Source: a bacterium
GTDB taxonomy: Bacteria; Patescibacteriota; Patescibacteriia; UBA9934
Length of the DNA stretch: 64,000 nt
Direction of reading: 5' to 3'
Assembly: GCA_043818555.1 (NCBI GenBank)
Contig: JBDRFP010000002.1
Span: 16,774 to 80,773 of the forward strand
The position numbers were made by a program, and so were the translations under genes. The notes beneath the pieces were generated by a model that ran no database searches, was not told the DNA's origin, and saw only the letters and a list, made by a program, of their open reading frames with translations. The first letter of the stretch is position 1; every line of letters starts with the position of its first letter. This document shows, one piece after another, positions 48,872-59,476 of the stretch.

Positions 48872-49528
48872 TTAGAGTTTCTCAGCAACCCAGTTCACTA
48901 CGTAGTCGAACAACTCAGGGTCGTTTTCAAACATAGTTGTACCATGGCCAATTCCTGACTTTTTAACCAGCTCGACCTGATCAGGCTTTAGCTCTCCGAG
49001 CTTCAATATTGACTTAAACGATGTTTCATCTTCCTCGCTTGCAACTAAAAGCACGCGCTGTTCGTCGGCAAGCTTACCGATCTTGTCATCAGTTGTAACT
49101 CCTCGATAATCTACCCCAGGCGAAAGCGCAACTGCGGCCGGCATTCTGGCCTCCACGGCCATCTGAATTGCTAAATTTGCTCCAATTGACGCCCCAACAA
49201 CTACCGTTTTTTCAACTACTGCTCCTCGACGTTTAAGCTCCTCCCACGCCGCGCGCGCATCCAAAATCTTCGCCTGCTGCTCGGCCTCAGTAAACTCCTT
49301 GTACCCGCCAGGACCACCTTCGCTGGCACCGTGCCCTCGCTCGTCAATAGCAATCGATGCCACTCCACGCCCTGCAAGCGCAGCGGCAAACCCAGCCCAG
49401 CTCTCCTTAGTGGCCGGCATCATATGCAAAAGGATCGCGTATTTTTCACCTTCAGCAGGGTAAAAATCAGCCGCGATCGTCTTGCCGTCTTTGGTTGTGA
49501 GTCTTATCTGCTCCATGCTAATCACCAA
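48872..49528 (-). CDS. Alpha/beta-hydrolase fold protein
   Basis: 218 aa. Nucleophile elbow GASIG and an HGxxM-type C-terminal motif. Confidence 0.6.
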   Translation of the reverse strand: MVISMEQIRLTTKDGKTIAADFYPAEGEKYAILLHMMPATKESWAGFAAALAGRGVASIAIDERGHGASEGGPGGYKEFTEAEQQAKILDARAAWEELKRRGAVVEKTVVVGASIGANLAIQMAVEARMPAAVALSPGVDYRGVTTDDKIGKLADEQRVLLVASEEDETSFKSILKLGELKPDQVELVKKSGIGHGTTMFENDPELFDYVVNWVAEKL

Positions 49529-51635
49529 AAGACAAAATTTCGTTCGGCCTCACGCTTTGCGCGCCGGTAATAGCCGACCCCCTGTCGTCAGTCCTTTCCC
49601 GATCACTGGCTCCACTAGCCCCACTAGCTCCTTTAGCTCCACTGGCTCCTCCCCGATCACTAGCCCCTTCACGATCGCCAGCAGATCTCTTTTTGTTTCT
49701 ATTCCTTCTTTTCCGCTTCCTCGGAACCTGCCGTTGATCATCCTGCCTACTCTCATCAGCTCGATCCCTAGCTCCTTCGCGATCACTAGCTCCTTCGCGA
49801 TCACTAGCTCCGCTAGCCCTGCTAGCCCTACTAGCTCCTTCGCGATCATTCTCTCCTTCTTCTACTTTCTTCTTCAACAAATCACCAGCCTTAATTTCCG
49901 GCTCCGTTTCCTCTTTTATCTCAACTATTTCACTTTCTTTCACCTCTTTCGCTTCTATCGCCTTTTTCGCCTCTGCCTCCTGACCTTTAGCCCTACTAGC
50001 CCAATTAGCCCCTCCCCGATCACCAAGCGCGCTCAACCCAATTTCCTCCCCAACCTTTTTCTCAATAACCTCGCCCTCCTCTACTTTTGGCGGCCTATCA
50101 ACAACTGTTTTCTCTTTACGGTCGTCAGGCTTCTGCTTCCTTCGATTTTTTGACTTCTCGCGCTCTTCTTTAATAATCGGTACACAATCTTCGCAATAAA
50201 TCGGCCGTTCGCGATCAAGCTGAACAGGCAACTTAAACACCTTACTGCAACGCGTGCAGGTGTACTCATGCGAAAATCGTTCCTGTTTTACAGCCTTTTT
50301 TAGATCTTTCGCAGCTTTCATTTCTTTTTCCAAATCAACATCATCTCCAAACCCGCTCCACTCTGCCACATGCTTTTCAATAGCGACCCGATCGCCGGCA
50401 AAGCGCTCGCGCGACTGGTCGATTACCTTTTGCTCGCTTCCAGTTCTGACAGCAATAGGATGCAGCGTTACGGCAGAAAACGGCTGGCTTGTGATTCCGT
50501 CGATCATCAACTTTACATAAACCTGAAACTTGGCAAGGTTGACCAAATCCTGCGGAATAAACCTTGGCATAAACTCATCCTCCATAAACTGAGCGTCAGG
50601 CGAGCCAACACGAAAACTGATCAGCGTACCAATGTTACCAAACACGGCATCGCGGACTTCTTCGCTGAGCTGAGCAATAAACTGGTGAGCCATCACAAGA
50701 TTCAAACGGTACTTTCGAGCCTCGCTCAAGATCGCAGCAAAAGATTCGTTTGCAAAGTTTTGAAATTCGTCAACATAAACATAAAAGTCCTGTCGTTCGC
50801 TTTCCGGCATGTCAACGCGCTCCATTGCAGCCATCTGAATTTTGGTGATTATCATTCCGCCGAGGAGCCGCATGGCATCTTCACCAATCCGGCCCTTGGA
50901 CAAGTTCACAATAAAAATCATCTGATCGTCCATTATTCTGCGCGGATTGATTGACGACTTTGCCTGGGCTACAATATTTCGAATAATAGATGCGGAAAGA
51001 AACTGACCGACCTTGTTTTGAATAGGCGCCACAGCTTCGGACGCAAATTTGCTCTGGTAGGACTCAAATTCTTTAATCCAGAACTGCTTAATTATCGGGT
51101 CCTTAACATTGCCGATTATAATTTTTCTGTAATCAGCGTCAGAAAGTAGCCTGTTGATTCCCAAAAGCGTACTGCCAGGCGTTTCAAGAAGAGCCAAAAT
51201 AGTATTATTCAAAATGTACTCCATTCGGGCACTCCAGACATTTTCCCAAATCTTTTTGAACACGCTCATCATTCCGGCTGCAACAAGATGGCGCTGAGTG
51301 TCGTCGACCGATTCGAGAATGTTAAAACCGACCGGATAATTCAAATCTGCCGGGTTAAAGTAGACAACATCGTTAATTCTCCAACTTGGGATGTAGTCAA
51401 GCAGGCGCTCAGCAGTGTCGCCATGCGGGTCAATGTAGCAGCAGCCGTGACCGGCATAAATGTCTGCAAGAATCATGTTTTCGAGCAGAGTCGTTTTTCC
51501 AACACCGGTTTTTCCAATTATATACATGTGCCGACGGCGGTCGTCGGTTTTAATCCCAAATTTCCGCATTTGATTGCGGAAGTTCGTCTTTGCAAAATAG
51601 ATGACGTCGTTTTCGTGATCGTGTTCGTATCTCAT
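49518..51635 (-). CDS. VirD4/TraG/TrwB-like P-loop ATPase (type IV coupling-protein-like / T4SS DNA-binding-domain family), 705 aa
   Basis: Walker A YIIGKTGVGKTT, DPHGD, Walker B-like ..VDEFQNF. C-terminal Cx2C...Cx2C zinc ribbon, then a highly charged tail with tandem repeats (REGASRASRASGASDREGASDREGARD; DNA about 49560-49860). Start set to ATG 51635. Confidence 0.75.
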   Translation of the reverse strand: MRYEHDHENDVIYFAKTNFRNQMRKFGIKTDDRRRHMYIIGKTGVGKTTLLENMILADIYAGHGCCYIDPHGDTAERLLDYIPSWRINDVVYFNPADLNYPVGFNILESVDDTQRHLVAAGMMSVFKKIWENVWSARMEYILNNTILALLETPGSTLLGINRLLSDADYRKIIIGNVKDPIIKQFWIKEFESYQSKFASEAVAPIQNKVGQFLSASIIRNIVAQAKSSINPRRIMDDQMIFIVNLSKGRIGEDAMRLLGGMIITKIQMAAMERVDMPESERQDFYVYVDEFQNFANESFAAILSEARKYRLNLVMAHQFIAQLSEEVRDAVFGNIGTLISFRVGSPDAQFMEDEFMPRFIPQDLVNLAKFQVYVKLMIDGITSQPFSAVTLHPIAVRTGSEQKVIDQSRERFAGDRVAIEKHVAEWSGFGDDVDLEKEMKAAKDLKKAVKQERFSHEYTCTRCSKVFKLPVQLDRERPIYCEDCVPIIKEEREKSKNRRKQKPDDRKEKTVVDRPPKVEEGEVIEKKVGEEIGLSALGDRGGANWASRAKGQEAEAKKAIEAKEVKESEIVEIKEETEPEIKAGDLLKKKVEEGENDREGASRASRASGASDREGASDREGARDRADESRQDDQRQVPRKRKRRNRNKKRSAGDREGASDRGGASGAKGASGASGASDRERTDDRGSAITGAQSVRPNEILSFGD

Positions 51636-51641
51636 ATTCGA

Positions 51642-51760
51642 TAATGACCAATGCCCAACTATCAATTCCCAATGAATCCCCAATCCCCCAATTCGATCTT
51701 CAATTGGTTATTGTGCATTGGATATTCATTGGTCATTGGGTTTTTGTGAATTGGTCATTT
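51642..51760. repeat. CCAAT-box-rich leader element copy B (TAATGACCAATG...CATTGGTCATTGG...GAATTGGTCATTT), between the 560-aa gene and the ATPase gene
   Basis: 43-nt block identical to copy A. Internal inverted repeats. Confidence 0.8.
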
Positions 51761-53441
51761 AAATTGGTAGATTCTCAGGTCCTGATTCTTGACCGATTGG
51801 TTCATCAGCTAAATCTAATCCCGGCGGCAACGGAGCCGGCATGCCAGCTTTTGGCATGTATTCGCCTTCTACGATTTGATTAACCCCCGCGTCATACGAT
51901 TCAACCTCCGCGCTTTTCGAAATAACCCCCTCATCTTTTGTCAAACCCCCTTCAACTCCTAAACTCGGCGTTGGCACAACAAGCGGTTTTGGCTCAGGGA
52001 GTTTTTTATGCACTGTAACGCCTGCGGCAGCCTGCACATCCGGCGATACACGGTCCAAATTCGGCAAGGTAGGATCGTCGGCCCCTGCAAATTCAAGCTC
52101 GCTAGGGGCTTCCGCGCGCCGCGCGCCAATACTTGTCAACACCGGCGTTCGAGCGTCAGCGGCCGGGAAGTGGAACAAAGTCGCAAGTTCCTCACAGTTC
52201 AAAATGTACGGTGTTGCGCCAGCGCCAAACGAACGATTCTTATATCGCTTAATCAGCCGGCGCTGTTTCATTGGCATCTGCCAGAGCATGTAAAAATAAT
52301 CATCCTTTGGAGTTGAAGGAATGTGCAAACCAAATTTATTCATTCCCAAGTGACCGTACTGGTGGAAAATACCTTTAATCATTGAAGCCGCGGTCCCCTT
52401 GCGGAAAACATCTTTTTTACCACAATAAACAACCCTGATCTTTGTGAGCCAGCCGATTGATCCAGTTTTCCGCGAAACCGAATCAATTAGTTCTTTTTCG
52501 TCAGGCGTAATCCTAAACATTGCCCAGTTATCTGCCGATTTTTCTTCTGCTGAGGCCGCGCCCATCCCAATTGCCTGGCTCAAGAGTTCCTGAGGCACCC
52601 AGCCGACAGCTTCTGCCAAAAAGCTCTTTTTCTTTAGCTCTTCCTTCCCAAACTTGCTATTAACAAACTTTTCGCCTTCTTTAATCCAACCCTGACTGTC
52701 CGGTTGCATAACCAAAAGCTGAATCCAAAAATGCTCACCGGGACGCATTTTCCCCAAAATCTCAATTACTCCAAGAAGCGGATCTTTAAACCGCTGATCT
52801 TTTTCGCCCTGATGTTCGAACAGATCCCAGGTTTTGATTGGAACATACTGTGGCTTCTTTAGCATCATCTCCGTACCAAAACAATCGTATTCCTCATGCG
52901 GGTAATCGTTAGGGATCAGATCAACATAGTCCTCCACTTCGAGCATCTGAGCTTCCGGATATTGGGCGTAGAGCGATGCCTCCAAGAGGTCGCGATACTT
53001 GTCGGTTGTTCGAATGTAGAATTTAATGTGCCCACCGTTGCTTACAATTTCAAAAGCAAAATATGATTGGAACTTTCCCCAAAACCACTTTTCCTTCCAT
53101 GTGATTGACGATTTTGATCCGGCAAGGTTGGTAAAAAAGTTCGCCATTCCCATTGGGGTTTGGATGGCGTCCTGCGGCACACTGATTTCGTACAGGGTCC
53201 ATTTAAACTTTTCCCAGTACTGAACCTGCTTGCGGAAAAGCCAAACTTCTGAGAAGCCCCAAATGGCCACAGCAAAAATCGGCACCCACCCAATTGCCAA
53301 AAGGATGTGCGCGCCCATTACCTCCACAGGCGTTGTGGCAAGGTACTGTTCGATTGCAGCCGGAAGAGCTATAAACACTCCGATCATAATGAGATTATTA
53401 TAGCATATTGCGAGAGTAGACAGTAGGGACGCTGTATGCAA
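51759..53441 (-). CDS. Membrane-anchored partner protein of the T4CP-like ATPase (560 aa), homologous to the N-terminal half of 26233..28764
   Basis: N-terminal TM helices and a conserved LYAQYPEAQMLEVEDY block. Precedes the ATPase gene on the same strand. Confidence 0.65.
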   Translation of the reverse strand: MHTASLLSTLAICYNNLIMIGVFIALPAAIEQYLATTPVEVMGAHILLAIGWVPIFAVAIWGFSEVWLFRKQVQYWEKFKWTLYEISVPQDAIQTPMGMANFFTNLAGSKSSITWKEKWFWGKFQSYFAFEIVSNGGHIKFYIRTTDKYRDLLEASLYAQYPEAQMLEVEDYVDLIPNDYPHEEYDCFGTEMMLKKPQYVPIKTWDLFEHQGEKDQRFKDPLLGVIEILGKMRPGEHFWIQLLVMQPDSQGWIKEGEKFVNSKFGKEELKKKSFLAEAVGWVPQELLSQAIGMGAASAEEKSADNWAMFRITPDEKELIDSVSRKTGSIGWLTKIRVVYCGKKDVFRKGTAASMIKGIFHQYGHLGMNKFGLHIPSTPKDDYFYMLWQMPMKQRRLIKRYKNRSFGAGATPYILNCEELATLFHFPAADARTPVLTSIGARRAEAPSELEFAGADDPTLPNLDRVSPDVQAAAGVTVHKKLPEPKPLVVPTPSLGVEGGLTKDEGVISKSAEVESYDAGVNQIVEGEYMPKAGMPAPLPPGLDLADEPIGQESGPENLPI

Positions 53442-53493
53442 TGTCCCTACGACAGAGGTTCGCAGTTGCCTGTTCGCGGTTCACAAAACAAAA

Positions 53494-53521
53494 CAAGAGC
53501 CTGGGCTCTTGCTTTTTTTTT
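53494..53521. terminator. Hairpin CAAGAGCC-TG-GGCTCTTG flanked by a T9 run (plus strand) and a T-rich tract (minus strand). Bidirectional terminator-like.
   Basis: 8-bp stem followed by T9. Confidence 0.5.
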
Positions 53522-53867
53522 ACGATGTTGCCAGTCCTACTTTTTGTTCAACTATGTTCAGCCGCTCCTCGAGACGATCTTGTCTGTGCCGCATCATTAG
53601 AAGTTCCTGATCCAGAGTCTCGTGCAGCTTACAAAAACGATCAAATTCGGTCAAAATCCTTGATTCTGTTTCCTTCAGCCTTGTGTCCACAAGGCCCTCT
53701 ACATCCTCATGCGACAATATTTTTGCCTCTATTGGTATCAATTTCTTATCCGCAACTTCTGCAACAATATTCTCAACATCCTCTCGCATGAGCATGTTCT
53801 GCTGGAGAAAGTCCAGAATCTCGCTTGTCGATACGTCGCCATTTGTCATAAATTGATTATACCACAA
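53520..53867 (-). CDS. Hypothetical coiled-coil protein (115 aa)
   Basis: Helical, charged ORF. No motif. Confidence 0.5.
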   Translation of the reverse strand: MWYNQFMTNGDVSTSEILDFLQQNMLMREDVENIVAEVADKKLIPIEAKILSHEDVEGLVDTRLKETESRILTEFDRFCKLHETLDQELLMMRHRQDRLEERLNIVEQKVGLATS

Positions 53868-53873
53868 ACCGAC

Positions 53874-56828
53874 TTATCGATGCCTTCGCTTCTCCCACGC
53901 CACCAATAACGGACTTGCGATAAAGATTGACGAGTACGCACCGGAAACAATTCCGACCATCAACGCCAGGATAAACTCGCGCGTGGTTTCTCCTCCGAAC
54001 AAGAATATTGCAAGCAGCACCAGCAATGTCGTCAGCGAGGTGTTAATTGACCGCGCAAAGCTCTGCATAACACTTTGGTTTACGATTTGACCAAACGAAG
54101 CGTCGCTATGGCGGTTACTGATCAAGTTTTCACGAGTACGATCGAATACAACAATAGTGTCGTTAATCGAGTACCCAAGAATTGTGAGCATGGCAGCTAC
54201 AAACGCCGTGTCAATTTGAAAGCCGTAAAAATATCCGAGGGCTGCGAAAAGTCCAAGCGGGATTATTACATCGTGCACTGCTGCAACGATCGTGAGAATT
54301 CCGTACTTCCAGGAAGCAATTGGTTTTGTGACTTTTCTGAACGCCCAAGCAACATAGAGAACAATCAGTACGAGCAAAAGTACCACTGCTGAAACTGACT
54401 TTTTCTTCAGCTCTTCGCCAATCACAGGCCCGACAGCGTCATAACGGAGCTCTTCAATTTCGCCGTAGCGTTCCCCAAGCCCTGCAATAACCGCATCGTG
54501 CTCTTCGGTTGTAAGAGGCGCGAAGCGAATAAGCATTTCGCTCTCGCCGCTGTCCTGAACTACTGCGTCAAATCCGATTTCTGCCAAAGCTATGCGAATT
54601 TCACCAGATGCCGCAGAAGTCTCCATTGTGATCTCCATCAAGCTACCGCCGGTAAAATCAATCCCCAAATTCAGGCCAAAAATCGCTATGCTCGCTATTG
54701 CAGCAACCAGCAGCACGGTAGAAATCCCGAGCCAGATTTTTGTTTTCCCAATTACGTTAAAATTTTTCATATATTTGCTGACTACTGAATACTGTCTACT
54801 TTTGCTTTTAGATCCCCCATACAACCACTTTGACTTCAAAATCTTCCCACCGCTTACCCAGTGTAAAAGCACGCGCGTGACCAAAATCGCAGTCAGCATG
54901 GACACCAAAATTCCAAGCGCCAGCGTAAGCGCAAAGCCTTTAATAAAGCTGGTGCTCATTGTAAACAGCACTGCTGCGGCGATTAGCGTTGTAATGTTGC
55001 CGTCTCGGATTGATGTCCAGGCCCGGCGGAATCCTTCGTCAATAGCTGTTGACAAGTCGCGACCACTTATTAATTCTTCCTTAAGCCGTTCAAAAATCAA
55101 CACATTGGCGTCCACTGCCATACCAAGCGAAAGGATAAATCCGGCGATTCCGGCAAGCGTAAGCGTAACGCCAAGCCATTTGTACAAGGCAAGGTTGACT
55201 GCGCCGTACACAACAAGGGCCAGCACTGCGAGCAATCCGGCCAATCGATAATATGCAATCATGAACAAAGCCACAAGCGCAAAGCCAATCAGGGCCGCAT
55301 TAATGCTTCTCTCTAGCGAAACCGCTCCAAGCGACGGGCCAACCGTCTGCTGGCTGAGAAGATCCACCGGAACCGGCAAGGCGCCCGCGTTCAGGCGCTG
55401 CGCAAGCAATTTTGCTTCTTCGAGCGTAAAGCTACCGGTAATCGTGGCATCGCCTCCGTAAATAACATTTTGAACAACTGGGGCTGAAATTGGATCTCCA
55501 TCCAGGAAAATTCCAATCACTTCGCCAATCTGCTCTTCGGTCAGAATCTGGAACAGATCACCGCCTTCATCGTTAAAGTCTAGCGTAACATAAGGTGCGC
55601 CCGTACTCTGATCAAAAGCGACTGCCGACCCCTGTACATGCTTTCCAGAAAGCCCTGTGTTTTCCCACATTGCGTCTTCCATCAGGTCACTGACTGTTGT
55701 CCAATCCATTTTAATGTGCGCGATCTCGTAAGTTGGCACAGCGCGGGAGTTGGTTCGATAGATTATATGATATCCAAACCTGGTCTCAACAACATCTGAA
55801 ATTGTGTTGTCTTCCATTGCAAACAGCGCGGTTTCAAAATCCTCAACCATCATCCCTTCACGCACCCATCCAAGCGACCCCTCGTCTTGCGCGCTTGGAC
55901 CCTCTGACTTTTCTACTGCAGTTTCGCCAAAAGTTGCAGCCGTTACTTCGCGCTGAATTTCCTCTGCAATCAGCTGGGCTTCAATTTTTGAGCGTTCAGA
56001 ATCACATCCGTCCGATTCGCTGTGGCAAATCAGGATGTGCGATGCTTCAACTTCGATGCGGTCCTGCTCGGAAATGTAATTTACAATGTGAAGTTCTGAT
56101 TCAGCTTCGTAAATTCCGTTAATCACGCCGGTTGGAATGTTTTCCGATCCAATCTGCTCAACTAGCTCGTCAAAAATGTAATTTTCAGAATCTACAAAAC
56201 CAATGTATCCGCCATTATTGTTGGTGGATGTTGCTGTTGAAAATTCTGCCGCAAGCGCTCCAAAATCCTCTCCCGCAAGCGCGCGATCCAGCACTGCAAG
56301 CGCGGCCGTGTATTCCTCAGCCTGAGCAGCTTCGACTTGTGCTTCCTGCTCTTCAGTCGCCTCAACCTCGTCAAGATTTGTTGGAATCTTAAACTCTAAA
56401 ATAGGCGTCTCACCGATTTCCGCAATCGCTTCGCTAATGTCAAACACGCCAGCAAGTTCAATAATTAGTCGGTAATGGCCGTCGGTGATTGTTGTCTGCA
56501 CCAAAGGCTCTGCAACGCCGAATGCGTTCACGCGTCGCTCAATAACATCACGGACTCCTTCCAAAGCACTGGCGCGGTCGTCAGCGTCGATGTTAGACAT
56601 GTCGGCTTCGTAAAGAAGGTGCGCGCCGCCCTGCAAGTCCAACCCAAGCCGAAAACCTTCATCGGAAAAATGCGGACCAAAGCCGATTTTGTCCATTGCG
56701 CTGTTCCACATGCCTGGAAATGCGGCTGATGCCGTAAGTACAAAAACCACTACGATTGCCAGAATCGTAGCATGTAAATTCCATCGCCTCCTGCCTTGTT
56801 TTCGTTCCATAGTATGTTCGTTAGCCAA
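53874..56828 (-). CDS. secDF: Protein translocase subunit SecDF (fused) with an inserted parvulin-type PPIase domain
   Basis: 984 aa. SecD head (LGLDLQGGAHLLYE), 12 TM helices, SecF-like C-terminal half (MLTILGYSINDTIVVFDRTREN). Periplasmic insertion carrying ASHILI...GSLGWVREGMMVEDFETALF...RFGYHIIY (PpiC/parvulin signature). Confidence 0.85.
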   Translation of the reverse strand: MANEHTMERKQGRRRWNLHATILAIVVVFVLTASAAFPGMWNSAMDKIGFGPHFSDEGFRLGLDLQGGAHLLYEADMSNIDADDRASALEGVRDVIERRVNAFGVAEPLVQTTITDGHYRLIIELAGVFDISEAIAEIGETPILEFKIPTNLDEVEATEEQEAQVEAAQAEEYTAALAVLDRALAGEDFGALAAEFSTATSTNNNGGYIGFVDSENYIFDELVEQIGSENIPTGVINGIYEAESELHIVNYISEQDRIEVEASHILICHSESDGCDSERSKIEAQLIAEEIQREVTAATFGETAVEKSEGPSAQDEGSLGWVREGMMVEDFETALFAMEDNTISDVVETRFGYHIIYRTNSRAVPTYEIAHIKMDWTTVSDLMEDAMWENTGLSGKHVQGSAVAFDQSTGAPYVTLDFNDEGGDLFQILTEEQIGEVIGIFLDGDPISAPVVQNVIYGGDATITGSFTLEEAKLLAQRLNAGALPVPVDLLSQQTVGPSLGAVSLERSINAALIGFALVALFMIAYYRLAGLLAVLALVVYGAVNLALYKWLGVTLTLAGIAGFILSLGMAVDANVLIFERLKEELISGRDLSTAIDEGFRRAWTSIRDGNITTLIAAAVLFTMSTSFIKGFALTLALGILVSMLTAILVTRVLLHWVSGGKILKSKWLYGGSKSKSRQYSVVSKYMKNFNVIGKTKIWLGISTVLLVAAIASIAIFGLNLGIDFTGGSLMEITMETSAASGEIRIALAEIGFDAVVQDSGESEMLIRFAPLTTEEHDAVIAGLGERYGEIEELRYDAVGPVIGEELKKKSVSAVVLLLVLIVLYVAWAFRKVTKPIASWKYGILTIVAAVHDVIIPLGLFAALGYFYGFQIDTAFVAAMLTILGYSINDTIVVFDRTRENLISNRHSDASFGQIVNQSVMQSFARSINTSLTTLLVLLAIFLFGGETTREFILALMVGIVSGAYSSIFIASPLLVAWEKRRHR

Positions 56829-57165
56829 ATTCGCTAGTCAGATCGTTTTAACATATTAAACGATTTTAATGTTTTGAACGTTAATGATAAGTGGCCCTAT
56901 TTTAGATTAAATAGCCAAAATTGGCAAGTGGATAGTCGAGAAACGAGAGTAGTCAGTAGACAGTAGACGGTAGACGGTAGACGGTCGAAGGCCTATAATA
57001 AACCTCGTCTATCGGTCTGTAGTTCTGTAGAGTCTGTAGGTCTGTAACGACCTCCAACTTGACACAACACCCCAAATCGGGTTAGATTACCACCTCTGCA
57101 AGGTCCAAACCCAAACAGAGACCCACCCCACCCTCCTTCGCAACTCTCCTGGAGCAAAAACACGG

Positions 57166-57839: not shown

Positions 57840-58406
57840 CTAACTTACCTCCTTGATCAACCGCTGCATCAACTCAAGTGGCATTCCGCTGGTCGAATCC
57901 TGCGGGCCGTCGATGTGATCGACAAAATTGCATAGCGGCTCGTCTTCCACGCGCATCGCGCCTGAGCAGTACATGATTTTCTCCATCGATATCGCCTGTT
58001 CGATCGCCTCGCTTGCGATTGGCTTAAAGTAAACTTTGACTATGTCGATTCCCTCAGCGCGATCATTTATCGCCGTATTGACGACCACAACACCGTTTAC
58101 AATCTCCATCGGGTGACTATGATACTTTGCAAGCCACTCGCGAGCTTCAGCAGCTGATTCTGGCTTTTCCCGAATCTCTCCGTTCCAGACTACGACCTGA
58201 TCGGAAGTAATTAATATCGCCGGCTCGTCGATTTTGTCGACTATGGCGTCTGCCTTCGCATGCGCTAACTTAATCACCAGTTTAGCCGGATCTGGATCTC
58301 GAATCGCTTTTTCGTCAATATCGGCTACTAAAACATCAAACTCAATCCCAGCATCGCGCAGGACTTGTTGACGTGATTTTGAGCTAGAGCCGAGGATTAG
58401 TTTCAT
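57840..58406 (-). CDS. maf: Maf-like nucleoside triphosphate pyrophosphatase
   Basis: N-terminal LILGSSS(K/P)(S/R)R and the overall Maf pattern. 188 aa. Confidence 0.85.
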   Translation of the reverse strand: MKLILGSSSKSRQQVLRDAGIEFDVLVADIDEKAIRDPDPAKLVIKLAHAKADAIVDKIDEPAILITSDQVVVWNGEIREKPESAAEAREWLAKYHSHPMEIVNGVVVVNTAINDRAEGIDIVKVYFKPIASEAIEQAISMEKIMYCSGAMRVEDEPLCNFVDHIDGPQDSTSGMPLELMQRLIKEVS

Positions 58407-58890
58407 ACCAACTGGTTAATATATGGTCGCGGACGAGGTCGAAATGCGGGTGAAGACAAGAATGAGGCGGGTCGGGAAATTCTTCCGGATGAAACCAACC
58501 GAGCTCATCTATTTTATCAGGTTCGCCAATCTTTACTTCGTCAGAATTTAAATGCACGGCGTGTAGCAGAGCAATCCAGTGAGTGGGCACTCCTTCATTA
58601 TCGCGCATCACATTAGTCGCCTGAACGAATTTCACATCCAAGGGATCGGCACAATACTCTTCCATGACTTCACGACGAACAGCATCTTCGATCTTCTCCC
58701 CGTGCTCCATTGATCCACCACCGCAGTCCCATCGCCCACGCTCGTCGCGGCAAGTCTGTGATCGTCGATGAAGCAATACTCGCCCAGCACCGTCGTGGCA
58801 AAAGAAAACAACGCAGACTCCAATGTAGTCTACGCCGCGTTTTGCATCTATTTGACGATACTCTTCACCGATCATAAATCTCTCTTCCAC
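58384..58890 (-). CDS. NUDIX hydrolase
   Basis: Nudix box GGGSMEHGEKIEDAVRREVMEEYC. Overlaps the maf start by 23 nt. Confidence 0.8.
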   Translation of the reverse strand: MEERFMIGEEYRQIDAKRGVDYIGVCVVFFCHDGAGRVLLHRRSQTCRDERGRWDCGGGSMEHGEKIEDAVRREVMEEYCADPLDVKFVQATNVMRDNEGVPTHWIALLHAVHLNSDEVKIGEPDKIDELGWFHPEEFPDPPHSCLHPHFDLVRDHILTSWYETNPRL

Positions 58891-58948
58891 GAAAATACCG
58901 AGGGCTTATTTGTTAATTCAATTGAATTAGCAAATAAGTAATCTTGGG

Positions 58949-59476
58949 CTAAATCTTGCCAATTTTATGCAACGCCTCAAGCGCCTTCAAGGTTACGCGA
59001 CGCTTCCCGCGTTGGTAAATCCCTTCAGCCAAATTCAACGCTTCTTGATAGTTGAGCCATCTAAAATCATCAAATTCAGTATCGTCAACATTTAAATCAT
59101 CCGTTCCCGCATCGGCAACTGCAAAAAAATATAACTTCCCTTTCATAAAAACTTCCTTGCCGTCGTCGGTCTGTAAATCGCGCGTGCCCTGAGTCTTAAT
59201 TGGAAACTCAACAAGGTCTTTTTCAAATACACTAATGTCGCCCTCGGCCTTGTCGACAAATGTTTTTCCAAGCTCCTCGGCCATCTCGCGCCGAAAAGCG
59301 CTATCGAGCGTCTCCTGGTTATTAATCCCGCCTTGCGGGAACTGCCATAGCTCATGTTCGGCCTTGTAGACGAACAGGGCCTTCTTATCGTGCACAAAAC
59401 AACCAACTACCTGGGGCCTAAACCCAGCGCGACGAATTTCGTCGATTTTTTCAAGCGATGTGTTGATCATACACAC
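58949..59476 (-). CDS. NUDIX hydrolase (RppH-like)
   Basis: Nudix box PQGGINNQETLDSAFRREMAEELG. The real start is probably the internal ATG (MINTSLEKI). Confidence 0.8.
   Translation of the reverse strand: MCMINTSLEKIDEIRRAGFRPQVVGCFVHDKKALFVYKAEHELWQFPQGGINNQETLDSAFRREMAEELGKTFVDKAEGDISVFEKDLVEFPIKTQGTRDLQTDDGKEVFMKGKLYFFAVADAGTDDLNVDDTEFDDFRWLNYQEALNLAEGIYQRGKRRVTLKALEALHKIGKI

What the first reader, a model, noticed from the sequence alone, without database searches (positions are those of the whole stretch)
53874..56828. SecDF fusion protein carrying an inserted parvulin-type PPIase domain
Within the periplasmic region of the SecD half there is a complete PpiC/parvulin signature (ASHILI...SLGWVREGMMVEDFETALF...RFGYHIIY), preceded by a second, degenerate parvulin-like segment. 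Fusing a foldase domain into the translocon accessory subunit would couple export to prolyl isomerisation. That job is normally done by the separate proteins PpiD, SurA or PrsA.
Basis: partly seen in the sequence, partly recalled or inferred. Interest (0 to 1): 0.5.

Follow-up and report, generated by a model that had tools for sequence, protein, structure and literature searches.

The report
SecD translocon subunit with built-in parvulins
This gene encodes the SecDF helper of the bacterial protein-export channel with two parvulin-type protein-folding domains, built from a rearranged (circularly permuted) unit, spliced into its outward-facing arm; the design is shared by many ultra-small "candidate phyla radiation" bacteria and apparently undescribed.

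Summary
ORF 53874-56828 (minus strand; likely ATG start at 56810, 978 aa) is a genuine SecD+SecF protein. Two Pfam-significant parvulin domains lie between the P1 base and the P1 head.

This is not a frameshift artefact. Hundreds of Patescibacteria SecDs (Uhrbacteria, Magasanikbacteria, Moranbacteria, Peribacteria) share the insert, as single, tandem or larger versions. All named ones are annotated plainly as "SecD".

New detail: the inserted unit is a circularly permuted parvulin, with its His-bearing β1 strand placed after β4. The window has two such units. The AlphaFold secondary structure and correlated loss of His residues indicate that parvulin B is nested inside permuted parvulin A.

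Both His pairs are present. However, the Asp equivalent to Pin1 C113 is replaced in both domains of this protein (A199, G310), so catalysis is uncertain.

The SecD-SecF fusion is atypical for close relatives. It depends on a 4-nt indel and might be an assembly error.

Most likely function: a foldase/holdase tethered to the translocon. This is a covalent version of the SurA, PpiD or PrsA associations with Sec. No description was found in the searchable literature.

The parts
53874..56828 (-). Whole ORF (984 codons from TTG, plus stop). The probable true start is the ATG at 56810, giving 978 aa = NCBI MFH1631498.1.
56721..56783 (-). N-terminal transmembrane helix TM1 (about residues 16-36)
   Evidence: AlphaFold helix 10-30 in model numbering (ORF numbering minus 6); hydrophobic sequence
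56382..56654 (-). N-terminal half of the P1 base (SecD_1st), residues 59-149, ending in the strand ETPILEFKIP
   Evidence: Pfam PF21760; aligns to T. thermophilus SecDF residues 32-119
56061..56381 (-). Parvulin A body (helices through β4), residues 150-256. It has no N-terminal β1 strand. H247 is the β4 His. A199 occupies the Asp position.
   Evidence: Rotamase 34.6 bits, model positions 8-95; conservation
55743..56060 (-). β1a strand plus parvulin B in canonical order, residues 257-362. Contains H264, the C268/C275 pair, E309-G310, L319, M327, F331 and H354.
   Evidence: Rotamase 77.7 bits; PrsA 2jzv E = 2e-16; Foldseek TM 0.83 to 2jzv and Pin1; pLDDT 90-95
55695..55742 (-). β1b strand (PTYEIAHIKMDWTT), residues 363-378. 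It supplies the β1 His (H371) to permuted parvulin A.
   Evidence: continuous strands in the model; hhalign; homologous ASHIL strand in single-parvulin SecDs; H247/H371 co-loss
55359..55694 (-). Connector plus P1 head, residues 379-490
   Evidence: Pfam PF22599, residues 391-486; aligns to T. thermophilus SecDF from residue 160
54834..55358 (-). SecD transmembrane helices 2-6, residues 491-665, including D573 (equivalent to T. thermophilus D340)
54771..54833 (-). SecD-SecF junction, residues 666-686. There is a 4-nt indel (about 54804-54807) relative to the nearest relative. The ancestral stop TAG, now out of frame, is at 54782-54784. Only about 11 nt separate it from the secF ATG.
53877..54770 (-). 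SecF half, residues 687-984, including D890 and R926 (equivalent to T. thermophilus D637 and R671)
   Evidence: TIGR00966 345 bits; 80% identical to a stand-alone Uhrbacteria SecF; alignment to 3aqp
56899..56927 (-). Promoter-like site upstream of the gene (TTGCCA-17-TAAAAT). Consensus match only.

Best explanation
The gene encodes the SecD and SecF subunits of the Sec translocon of a Patescibacteria (Uhrbacteria-like) bacterium. These subunits use the proton gradient to help pull exported proteins out of the SecYEG channel.

**Shown here.** The extracytoplasmic P1 domain carries a module of about 230 residues made of two parvulin domains. It sits at the junction between the P1 base and the mobile, substrate-binding P1 head. 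The ancestral inserted unit is a circularly permuted parvulin, ordered helices, β4, turn, β1.

**Shown in part, inferred in part.** In this protein the unit is duplicated so that parvulin B (canonical order) is nested between β4 and β1 of parvulin A. That gives a domain within a domain within a domain.

**Inferred mechanism.** The parvulin module is tethered beside the P1 head, directly over the SecYEG exit. There it would bind emerging unfolded chains, hold them against back-sliding and aggregation, and, where the active site is intact, catalyse Xaa-Pro isomerisation. This would hard-wire into SecD the role that separate proteins (PrsA, PpiD, SurA) play by docking on the translocon in other bacteria.
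For: **Identity**
- Pfam and NCBIfam hits pass their cut-offs: TIGR01129 secD 399 bits against a cut-off of 244, TIGR00966 SecF 345 against 160, and Rotamase twice.
- The best solved-structure matches are SecDF 3aqp/5xan, and PrsA, SurA and Pin1 parvulins.
- The proton-relay residues align: D573, D890 and R926 with T. thermophilus D340, D637 and R671.

**Conservation**
- All 120 best hits to the P1 region plus insert (55-70% identity, 97-100% coverage) carry Rotamase together with SecD domains.
- At least 67 of the 150 best 50%-identity cluster representatives carry a parvulin insert of single, tandem or larger size.
- Loci from Uhrbacteria, Magasanikbacteria, Parcubacteria-group and Peribacteria MAGs were confirmed.
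- The single-parvulin form occurs in Moranbacteria.

**Permutation**
- Single-parvulin SecDs read base, helices, FGYHIIK, turn, EVKASHILF, head.
- Moving β1 to the front raises the Pfam Rotamase score by 11.6-13.1 bits and extends the match to model positions 1-96/97.
- 99 of 120 have the motif order, nearly always with a 19-residue His-to-His spacing.

**Nesting**
- The AlphaFold model (pLDDT 88-95 over the parvulins) has continuous strands 239-261 and 346-369. The His pairs sit in the same register in both domains.
- All 10 family members that lack H247 also lack H371, while H264 and H354 are invariant. Fisher p = 1e-7, across at least 6 lineages.

**Function by analogy**
- AlphaFold places SurA's two parvulin domains on the SecDF P1 head (PMC9987972).
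- PpiD-YfgM binds SecYEG (PMC9643414).
- In M. pneumoniae, Sec including SecDF sits under a dome of PrsA-like proteins, and substrate density contacts the PPIC domain (10.1101/2025.04.25.650208).
Against: - No biochemical data exist for any member.
- In this protein the position equivalent to Pin1 C113 / PrsA Asp is Gly in parvulin B and Ala in parvulin A. The family consensus is Asp at both: 83/121 and 101/121. The PPIase activity of this orthologue may therefore be weak or absent.
- Several extracytoplasmic parvulins work without PPIase activity: PpiD, SurA P1, and PrsA in vivo (my own knowledge of the literature).
- pTM is only 0.48 and the linkers flanking the module have pLDDT 67-71. The position of the module relative to the P1 head and SecYEG is therefore not determined.
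- I could not inspect model coordinates. The nested topology rests on the DSSP string, strand register and covariation.
- Whether these genomes lack stand-alone PrsA, PpiD or SurA was not tested. I only found no other parvulin within the 64-kb window.
Confidence: 0.62

Rival explanations
1. The parvulin module is catalytically inert. It acts only as an extra substrate-binding (holdase) surface or a structural extension of the P1 head, like the inactive parvulin domains of PpiD or SurA P1.
For: The window protein has G310 and A199 at the catalytic Asp/Cys position in both domains. 30 of 121 relatives also have Gly in parvulin B. Parvulin A loses both His residues in 10 relatives, so selection on catalysis is relaxed at least in that domain.
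Against: H264, H354, F331 and G317 of parvulin B are invariant in 121/121, and L319 and M327 are largely kept. Most family members keep Asp. Single-parvulin SecDs have Asp in 96 of the 100 sequences where the motif could be located, and 99/120 match the strict β4-His/β1-His motif order. This pattern is typical of active parvulins. E309 next to G310 might substitute for the Asp.
Confidence: 0.27
2. The SecD-SecF fusion (not the parvulin insert) is an assembly or sequencing indel artefact. The organism really has separate secD and secF genes like its relatives.
For: All 120 best SecD hits are about 607-709 aa and all 120 best SecF hits are about 286-323 aa, so they are separate genes. The open frame depends on a 4-nt difference inside A-rich sequence (AAAAGCAAAAG). 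In the neighbouring frame the ancestral ...ATT CAG TAG stop is intact, 11 nt before the secF ATG. The protein is known from one contig only.
Against: The indel is 4 nt, not a simple homopolymer slip. The spacer has also shrunk from 72 to about 11 nt, consistent with real evolutionary compaction. Fused SecDF is common in bacteria, and fused parvulin-bearing SecDFs of 1015-1119 aa exist, for example in Cand. Peribacteria locus L022. The fusion is topologically permissible because both ends are cytoplasmic.
Confidence: 0.3
3. The whole architecture is an artefactual fusion of a SecD gene with a neighbouring PpiC/PrsA gene, through a frameshift or chimeric assembly.
Against: The insert is flanked on both sides by SecD P1 sequence in one frame. 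The same architecture recurs in hundreds of independent assemblies from several lineages. AlphaFold models the parvulins with high confidence.
Confidence: 0.01
4. The module serves SecDF itself or a partner rather than substrates. For example, it could gate or limit the swing of the P1 head, or dock another envelope machine such as YidC, pilus or S-layer assembly.
For: It is inserted exactly at the base-head junction, where head rotation is hinged. An invariant Cys pair (C268, C275) in the β1-α1 loop could be a redox-sensitive staple.
Against: Conservation falls on the canonical proline-pocket and His residues, not on a novel surface. There is no conserved partner gene in the neighbourhood.
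Confidence: 0.08

Closest known systems
Canonical SecDF (T. thermophilus 3AQP/5YHF, D. radiodurans 5XAN; RND superfamily)
   Same: P1 base and head, 6+6 TM helices, Sec_GG motifs and proton-relay residues all align. The expected mechanism is PMF-driven P1-head motion pulling the substrate (PMC6028853).
   Different: A connector of about 40 residues (T. thermophilus 120-159) is replaced by about 240 residues containing two parvulin domains. No solved or described SecDF that I could find has a foldase domain.
SurA (E. coli 1M5Y), a periplasmic chaperone with two tandem parvulin domains
   Same: It has two parvulins in tandem. The tandem region aligns to SurA P1-P2. SurA's parvulins are predicted to dock on the SecDF P1 head (PMC9987972), which is the site where the insert sits here.
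   Different: SurA is a soluble separate protein with an N/C chaperone core (no SurA_N hit here). Its parvulins are in canonical order and side by side, not permuted or nested.
PrsA (B. subtilis, S. aureus), a lipoprotein foldase of monoderm bacteria
   Same: It is the closest parvulin by sequence and fold (2jzv, E = 2e-16, 41% identity, TM 0.83). It is an extracytoplasmic, membrane-tethered foldase for Sec substrates.
   Different: PrsA is a stand-alone lipoprotein in which the parvulin is inserted into an NC chaperone domain. Here the host scaffold is SecD P1, and the parvulin unit is circularly permuted.
PpiD-YfgM on SecYEG (E. coli) and the M. pneumoniae Sec 'dome' of PrsA-like Mdp lipoproteins
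   Same: Both place a parvulin-fold protein physically at the exit of the Sec translocon (PMC9643414; 10.1101/2025.04.25.650208).
   Different: In those systems the association is non-covalent and uses separate gene products. Here it is a single polypeptide.

Membership tests
SecD/SecF protein-export subunits (RND superfamily) | Profile match above the curated threshold for SecD and for SecF | tested here: met
   TIGR01129 secD 399.2 bits (cut-off 244.4); TIGR00966 SecF 345.3 (160); TIGR00916 353.7 (148.6); PF02355 232.5 (20.5). The full-length fused-SecDF NCBIfam equivalogs are not reached: the best is NF009583, 677 against 721.
SecD/SecF protein-export subunits (RND superfamily) | Periplasmic P1 domain with base and head subdomains | tested here: met
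   PF21760 at 91-148 and PF22599 at 391-486. Both align to 3aqp P1. Foldseek top hits are SecDF structures.
SecD/SecF protein-export subunits (RND superfamily) | Charged transmembrane residues needed for proton transport (T. thermophilus D340, D637, R671; their role is recalled from Tsukazaki et al. 2011) | tested here: met
   D573, D890 and R926 align with them.
SecD/SecF protein-export subunits (RND superfamily) | PMF-dependent stimulation of translocation | not testable with these tools
   Needs biochemistry.
Parvulin (PpiC-type) PPIase domain | Pfam Rotamase match above the gathering score, and the parvulin fold | tested here: met
   Parvulin B 77.7 bits and parvulin A 34.6 bits against a cut-off of 21.7. 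The model superposes on PrsA and Pin1 parvulins at TM 0.83, 2.5-2.8 Å.
Parvulin (PpiC-type) PPIase domain | Canonical order of secondary structure elements (β1 first) | tested here: not met
   Parvulin A, and the single parvulin of related SecDs, have β1 after β4, which is a circular permutation. Parvulin B can be read in canonical order.
Parvulin (PpiC-type) PPIase domain | Two active-site histidines (Pin1 H59 and H157) | tested here: met
   Parvulin B: H264 and H354, invariant in 121/121. Parvulin A: H371 and H247, both present in the window and in 93/121.
Parvulin (PpiC-type) PPIase domain | Cys or Asp at the Pin1 C113 position | tested here: not met
   The window has G310 (parvulin B) and A199 (parvulin A). 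The family consensus is Asp, 83/121 and 101/121. The alignment to Pin1 numbering uses the Pin1 sequence from memory, together with the PrsA and SurA alignments.
Parvulin (PpiC-type) PPIase domain | Measurable prolyl isomerase activity | not testable with these tools
   Needs an enzyme assay.
PrsA / SurA / PpiD chaperone families | SurA_N / trigger-factor-like NC chaperone domain flanking the parvulin | tested here: not met
   No such Pfam or NCBIfam domain was found. The only hits outside SecD are Rotamase families, plus sub-threshold partial matches to PPIase models. It works like these chaperones but is not a member of their families.

The most novel reading that the evidence does not exclude
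Patescibacteria have replaced free extracytoplasmic foldases with a PPIase built into the moving arm of SecD. Proton-driven swings of the P1 head would feed the emerging chain through a nested pair of circularly permuted parvulins, mechanically coupling translocation to prolyl isomerisation and folding. This would be the first natural circularly permuted parvulin. It would also be a single-chain 'Rosetta stone' showing that the SecDF P1 head and parvulin chaperones (SurA, PpiD, PrsA) form one functional unit in bacteria generally.
Probability: 0.3. Interest if true: 0.75.

Novelty: new variant of a known kind. Interest (0 to 1): 0.58.

Why it matters
How proteins leaving SecYEG are handed to folding factors is an active question. 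Recent work covers PpiD-YfgM, SurA with the holo-translocon, and the Mycoplasma dome.

A natural, widely conserved covalent fusion of parvulins to the SecD P1 head is independent evolutionary evidence that these two activities belong together. It also offers a compact single-chain system for structural and biochemical study.

It suggests how genome-reduced CPR bacteria economise on envelope proteostasis.

The permuted, nested parvulin is a neat example of domain evolution: permutation, then duplication, then strand swap. Standard domain annotation misses it. All named database entries I saw simply say "SecD".

Tried and rejected
1. **First AlphaFold job (A2: full-length protein plus separate SecD and SecF relatives).** MAFFT slid the SecD relatives' head and TM region onto the paralogous SecF half, leaving residues 350-680 uncovered. 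The model was poor there. I used it only to confirm that the same long strands appear.
2. **Fold search against afdb50.** The library was not available.
3. **Genome scan with the diverse alignment A4.** I repeated it with the tighter A5. It is therefore a sample, not a census.
4. **Re-permuting the window's parvulin A with its full-length first helix.** This gave no Pfam gain over a control. With the helix trimmed the gain was small: +1.6 bits for Rotamase and +4.0 for Rotamase_3. hhalign gave 52.3 against 48.1 for the control. For the window, the assignment of β1b to body A therefore rests mainly on the AlphaFold strands and the His co-loss. The permutation itself is proven on the single-parvulin relatives.
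5. **Two tandem independent permuted units (each β4-hairpin-β1) versus the nested reading.** I considered this reading and cannot exclude it without coordinates. It is disfavoured by the unbroken strands and by H371 tracking H247 rather than H354.
6. **Literature searches.** I searched SecDF+parvulin, SecD/PpiC/Patescibacteria, 'circular permutation'+parvulin, and SecD+peptidyl-prolyl+CPR. None found a description of this architecture. The library covers open-access papers only.
Full report
**1. The observation**

The ORF listing finds a 984-codon ORF at 53874..56828 on the minus strand, exactly as reported. Relatives begin at the equivalent of codon 7, so the ATG at 56810 is the likely start. 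That 978-aa protein is present in NCBI as MFH1631498.1, 'MAG: protein translocase subunit SecD [bacterium]', from a single 105.8-kb contig.

Pfam gives the following domains:
- SecD_1st, residues 91-148
- Rotamase, two stretches, E = 4e-29
- SecDF_P1_head, residues 391-486
- SecD/SecF transmembrane modules, twice
- Sec_GG

NCBIfam gives secD (399 bits against a cut-off of 244) and SecF (345 against 160). Scanned separately, the strong parvulin (residues 264-359, 77.7 bits) and the upstream one (about 162-252, 34.6 bits) each exceed the gathering score of 21.7. The insert has SecD P1 sequence on both sides in one frame.

**2. How widespread it is**

A search with the P1 region plus insert returned 120 best hits at 55-70% identity and 97-100% coverage. 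All carry Rotamase plus SecD domains. Those that are named are 'SecD' of Candidatus Uhrbacteria or Patescibacteria.

In the exhaustive library of 50%-identity representatives, 311 proteins score E <= 1e-30. Domain HMMs I built from the family show several architectures among the best 150:

| Architecture | Length | Number among the representatives with both base and head |
|---|---|---|
| Single parvulin | ~560-620 aa | 17 |
| Tandem (the window's type) | ~670-700 aa | 37 |
| Larger inserts | ~775-830 aa | 13 |
| No parvulin detected | | 69 |

The three insert-size classes total 67 of the 136 representatives that have both base and head. Fused SecDF forms with a parvulin (1015-1119 aa) are included within these classes.

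A scan of GTDB species genomes, checked with the same HMMs, confirmed the following:
- Tandem-parvulin SecD with a separate downstream SecF in Uhrbacteria, Magasanikbacteria and 'Parcubacteria/Patescibacteria group' MAGs.
- A fused 1080-aa parvulin-SecDF in a Candidatus Peribacteria MAG.

The single-parvulin form belongs to Moranbacteria and other Patescibacteria. All 120 best hits there have the same domain combination.

The locus is syntenic with the nearest Uhrbacteria relative: NUDIX, NUDIX, Maf, HD_4, secD, secF.

**3. Anatomy: a circularly permuted, nested parvulin pair**

Parvulin A matches Pfam only from model position 8 onward, so it lacks the N-terminal His-bearing β1 strand.

The SecD-only AlphaFold model has mean pLDDT 83.7, with 88-95 across both parvulins. 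It shows two unbroken long strands, 239-261 and 346-369 in model numbering (ORF numbering minus 6).
- The first strand runs from β4 of parvulin A into β1 of parvulin B.
- The second runs from β4 of parvulin B into the conserved 'YEIAHI' segment.
- The His pairs are in the same antiparallel register in both domains: 258+348 = 241+365 = 606.

Single-parvulin SecDs make the logic plain. They read P1-base strand (ETPxLEFKE), helices, FGYHIIK (β4), acidic or Gly turn, EVKASHILF (classic β1), TGLSG (head). Moving that β1 to the front has these effects:
- The Pfam Rotamase score rises from 71.0, 86.8 and 84.9 bits to 84.1, 98.4 and 97.3 bits.
- The match extends from model positions 13/15-96 to 1-96/97.

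99 of 120 such proteins show the motif order, nearly always with a 19-residue His-to-His spacing. The inserted unit is therefore a circularly permuted parvulin.

The window contains two bodies and two β1 strands, in the order body A, β1a, body B, β1b. Which strand completes which body cannot be read from profiles. Two observations favour β1b with body A and β1a with body B, meaning parvulin B nested inside permuted parvulin A:
- The AlphaFold strands are continuous.
- All 10 family members lacking H247 also lack H371. H371 never occurs without H247, while H264 and H354 are invariant. Fisher p = 1e-7, across at least 6 lineages.

I could not inspect coordinates, so this last step remains an inference.

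**4. Active-site status**

In parvulin B, residues H264, H354, G317 and F331 are invariant, as is a family-specific Cys pair (C268, C275). L319 is present in 118/121 and M327 in 85/121.

The position equivalent to Pin1 C113 / PrsA Asp is Asp in 83/121, but Gly in the window and in 29 other family members. In parvulin A it is Asp in 101/121, but Ala in the window.

This particular protein therefore keeps both His pairs but lacks the acidic or Cys residue in both domains. Single-parvulin SecDs keep Asp in 96 of the 100 sequences where the motif could be located.

The closest solved parvulin is S. aureus PrsA: 2jzv, E = 2e-16, 41% identity, TM 0.83.

**5. Insertion site**

Against T. thermophilus SecDF, residues 52-144 of the model align to T. 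thermophilus 32-119, and residues 387-663 align to 160-437. The module therefore replaces a connector of about 40 residues between the last N-terminal base strand and the P1 head.

The flanking linkers have pLDDT 67-71 and pTM is 0.48. The orientation of the module relative to the head is not defined.

**6. The SecD-SecF fusion**

All 120 closest SecD relatives are about 607-709 aa, and all 120 closest SecF relatives are about 286-323 aa stand-alone proteins.

Compared with the nearest relative (L001, which has a 72-nt spacer), the window differs in two ways:
- A 4-nt indel (about 54804-54807) puts the ancestral TAG (54782-54784) out of frame.
- Only about 11 nt lie before the secF ATG (M687).

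This may be a real, recent fusion. Fused parvulin-SecDFs exist in other lineages such as Peribacteria. It may also be an indel error, and there is no independent assembly to decide. Function is unaffected either way. The proton-relay residues D573, D890 and R926 are conserved.

**7. Mechanism**

Established model: the P1 head binds the emerging chain and swings, driven by the PMF (summarised in PMC6028853).

Separate parvulin chaperones are known or predicted to sit at this site:
- SurA's two parvulins on the P1 head (PMC9987972).
- PpiD-YfgM on SecYEG (PMC9643414).
- PrsA-like Mdp proteins forming a dome over Sec in M. pneumoniae, with substrate density touching the PPIC domain (10.1101/2025.04.25.650208).

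I infer that the built-in module acts as a translocon-tethered holdase or foldase for nascent exported proteins. Whether this orthologue is an active isomerase is open.

**8. Novelty**

The sequences are public but annotated only as SecD. Four literature searches found no description of a parvulin inside SecD or of a circularly permuted parvulin. The library is open-access only.

I rate this a new variant of a known kind: real, conserved and mechanistically suggestive, but built from well-known parts.

Noticed in passing
window 53520-53867 (-), with a hairpin at 53490-53515: A 115-aa ORF with no Pfam match lies 6 nt downstream of secDF. It is followed by a terminator-like GC hairpin with T-runs on both strands, so it may be co-transcribed with secDF.
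   Followed up: partly
window 49518-51683 (-) and 51759-53441 (-): A TrwB/VirD4-like type IV coupling ATPase (PF10412, E = 5e-11) sits next to a 560-aa membrane protein with no Pfam match, just downstream of secDF. This could be a type IV secretion or DNA-uptake module in a CPR genome.
   Followed up: no
window 56004-56027 (-), residues C268 and C275: Two cysteines in the β1-α1 loop of parvulin B are invariant in 121/121 close relatives but absent from PrsA, SurA and the more distant parvulin-SecDs. They may form an extracytoplasmic disulfide staple. The distance was not measured.
   Followed up: partly
whole window 1-64000: GC skew is negative in nearly every 2-kb bin (cumulative -4.0) and almost all long ORFs are on the minus strand. 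The window therefore lies within one replichore with strong gene-strand bias.
   Followed up: no
L003, L007, L011, L012, L015: MAG records titled 'uncultured Gammaproteobacteria' or 'Candidatus Binatia' carry the Patescibacteria-type tandem-parvulin SecD plus a separate SecF. L003 is 62% identical to the window insert. The taxonomic labels of these records look unreliable.
   Followed up: no
L001 1175-1903: The nearest Uhrbacteria relative has an IS200/Y1 transposase-like gene between the NUDIX genes and maf. It is absent from the otherwise syntenic window region 57840-59476.
   Followed up: no
representatives P0294, P0309, P0315, P0318, P0330, P0333, P0336, P0352, P0362: Some SecDs have even larger inserts between base and head (290 aa or more; proteins of 775-1119 aa). 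These have extra sequence before and after the recognisable parvulin, possibly a third unit or other domains. They were not analysed.
   Followed up: no
window 53874-56828: The best full-length NCBIfam SecDF model (NF009583) scores 677 bits, below its 721-bit cut-off. The protein is therefore named only through the SecD and SecF domain models, which may be why the insert goes unmentioned in annotation.
   Followed up: no
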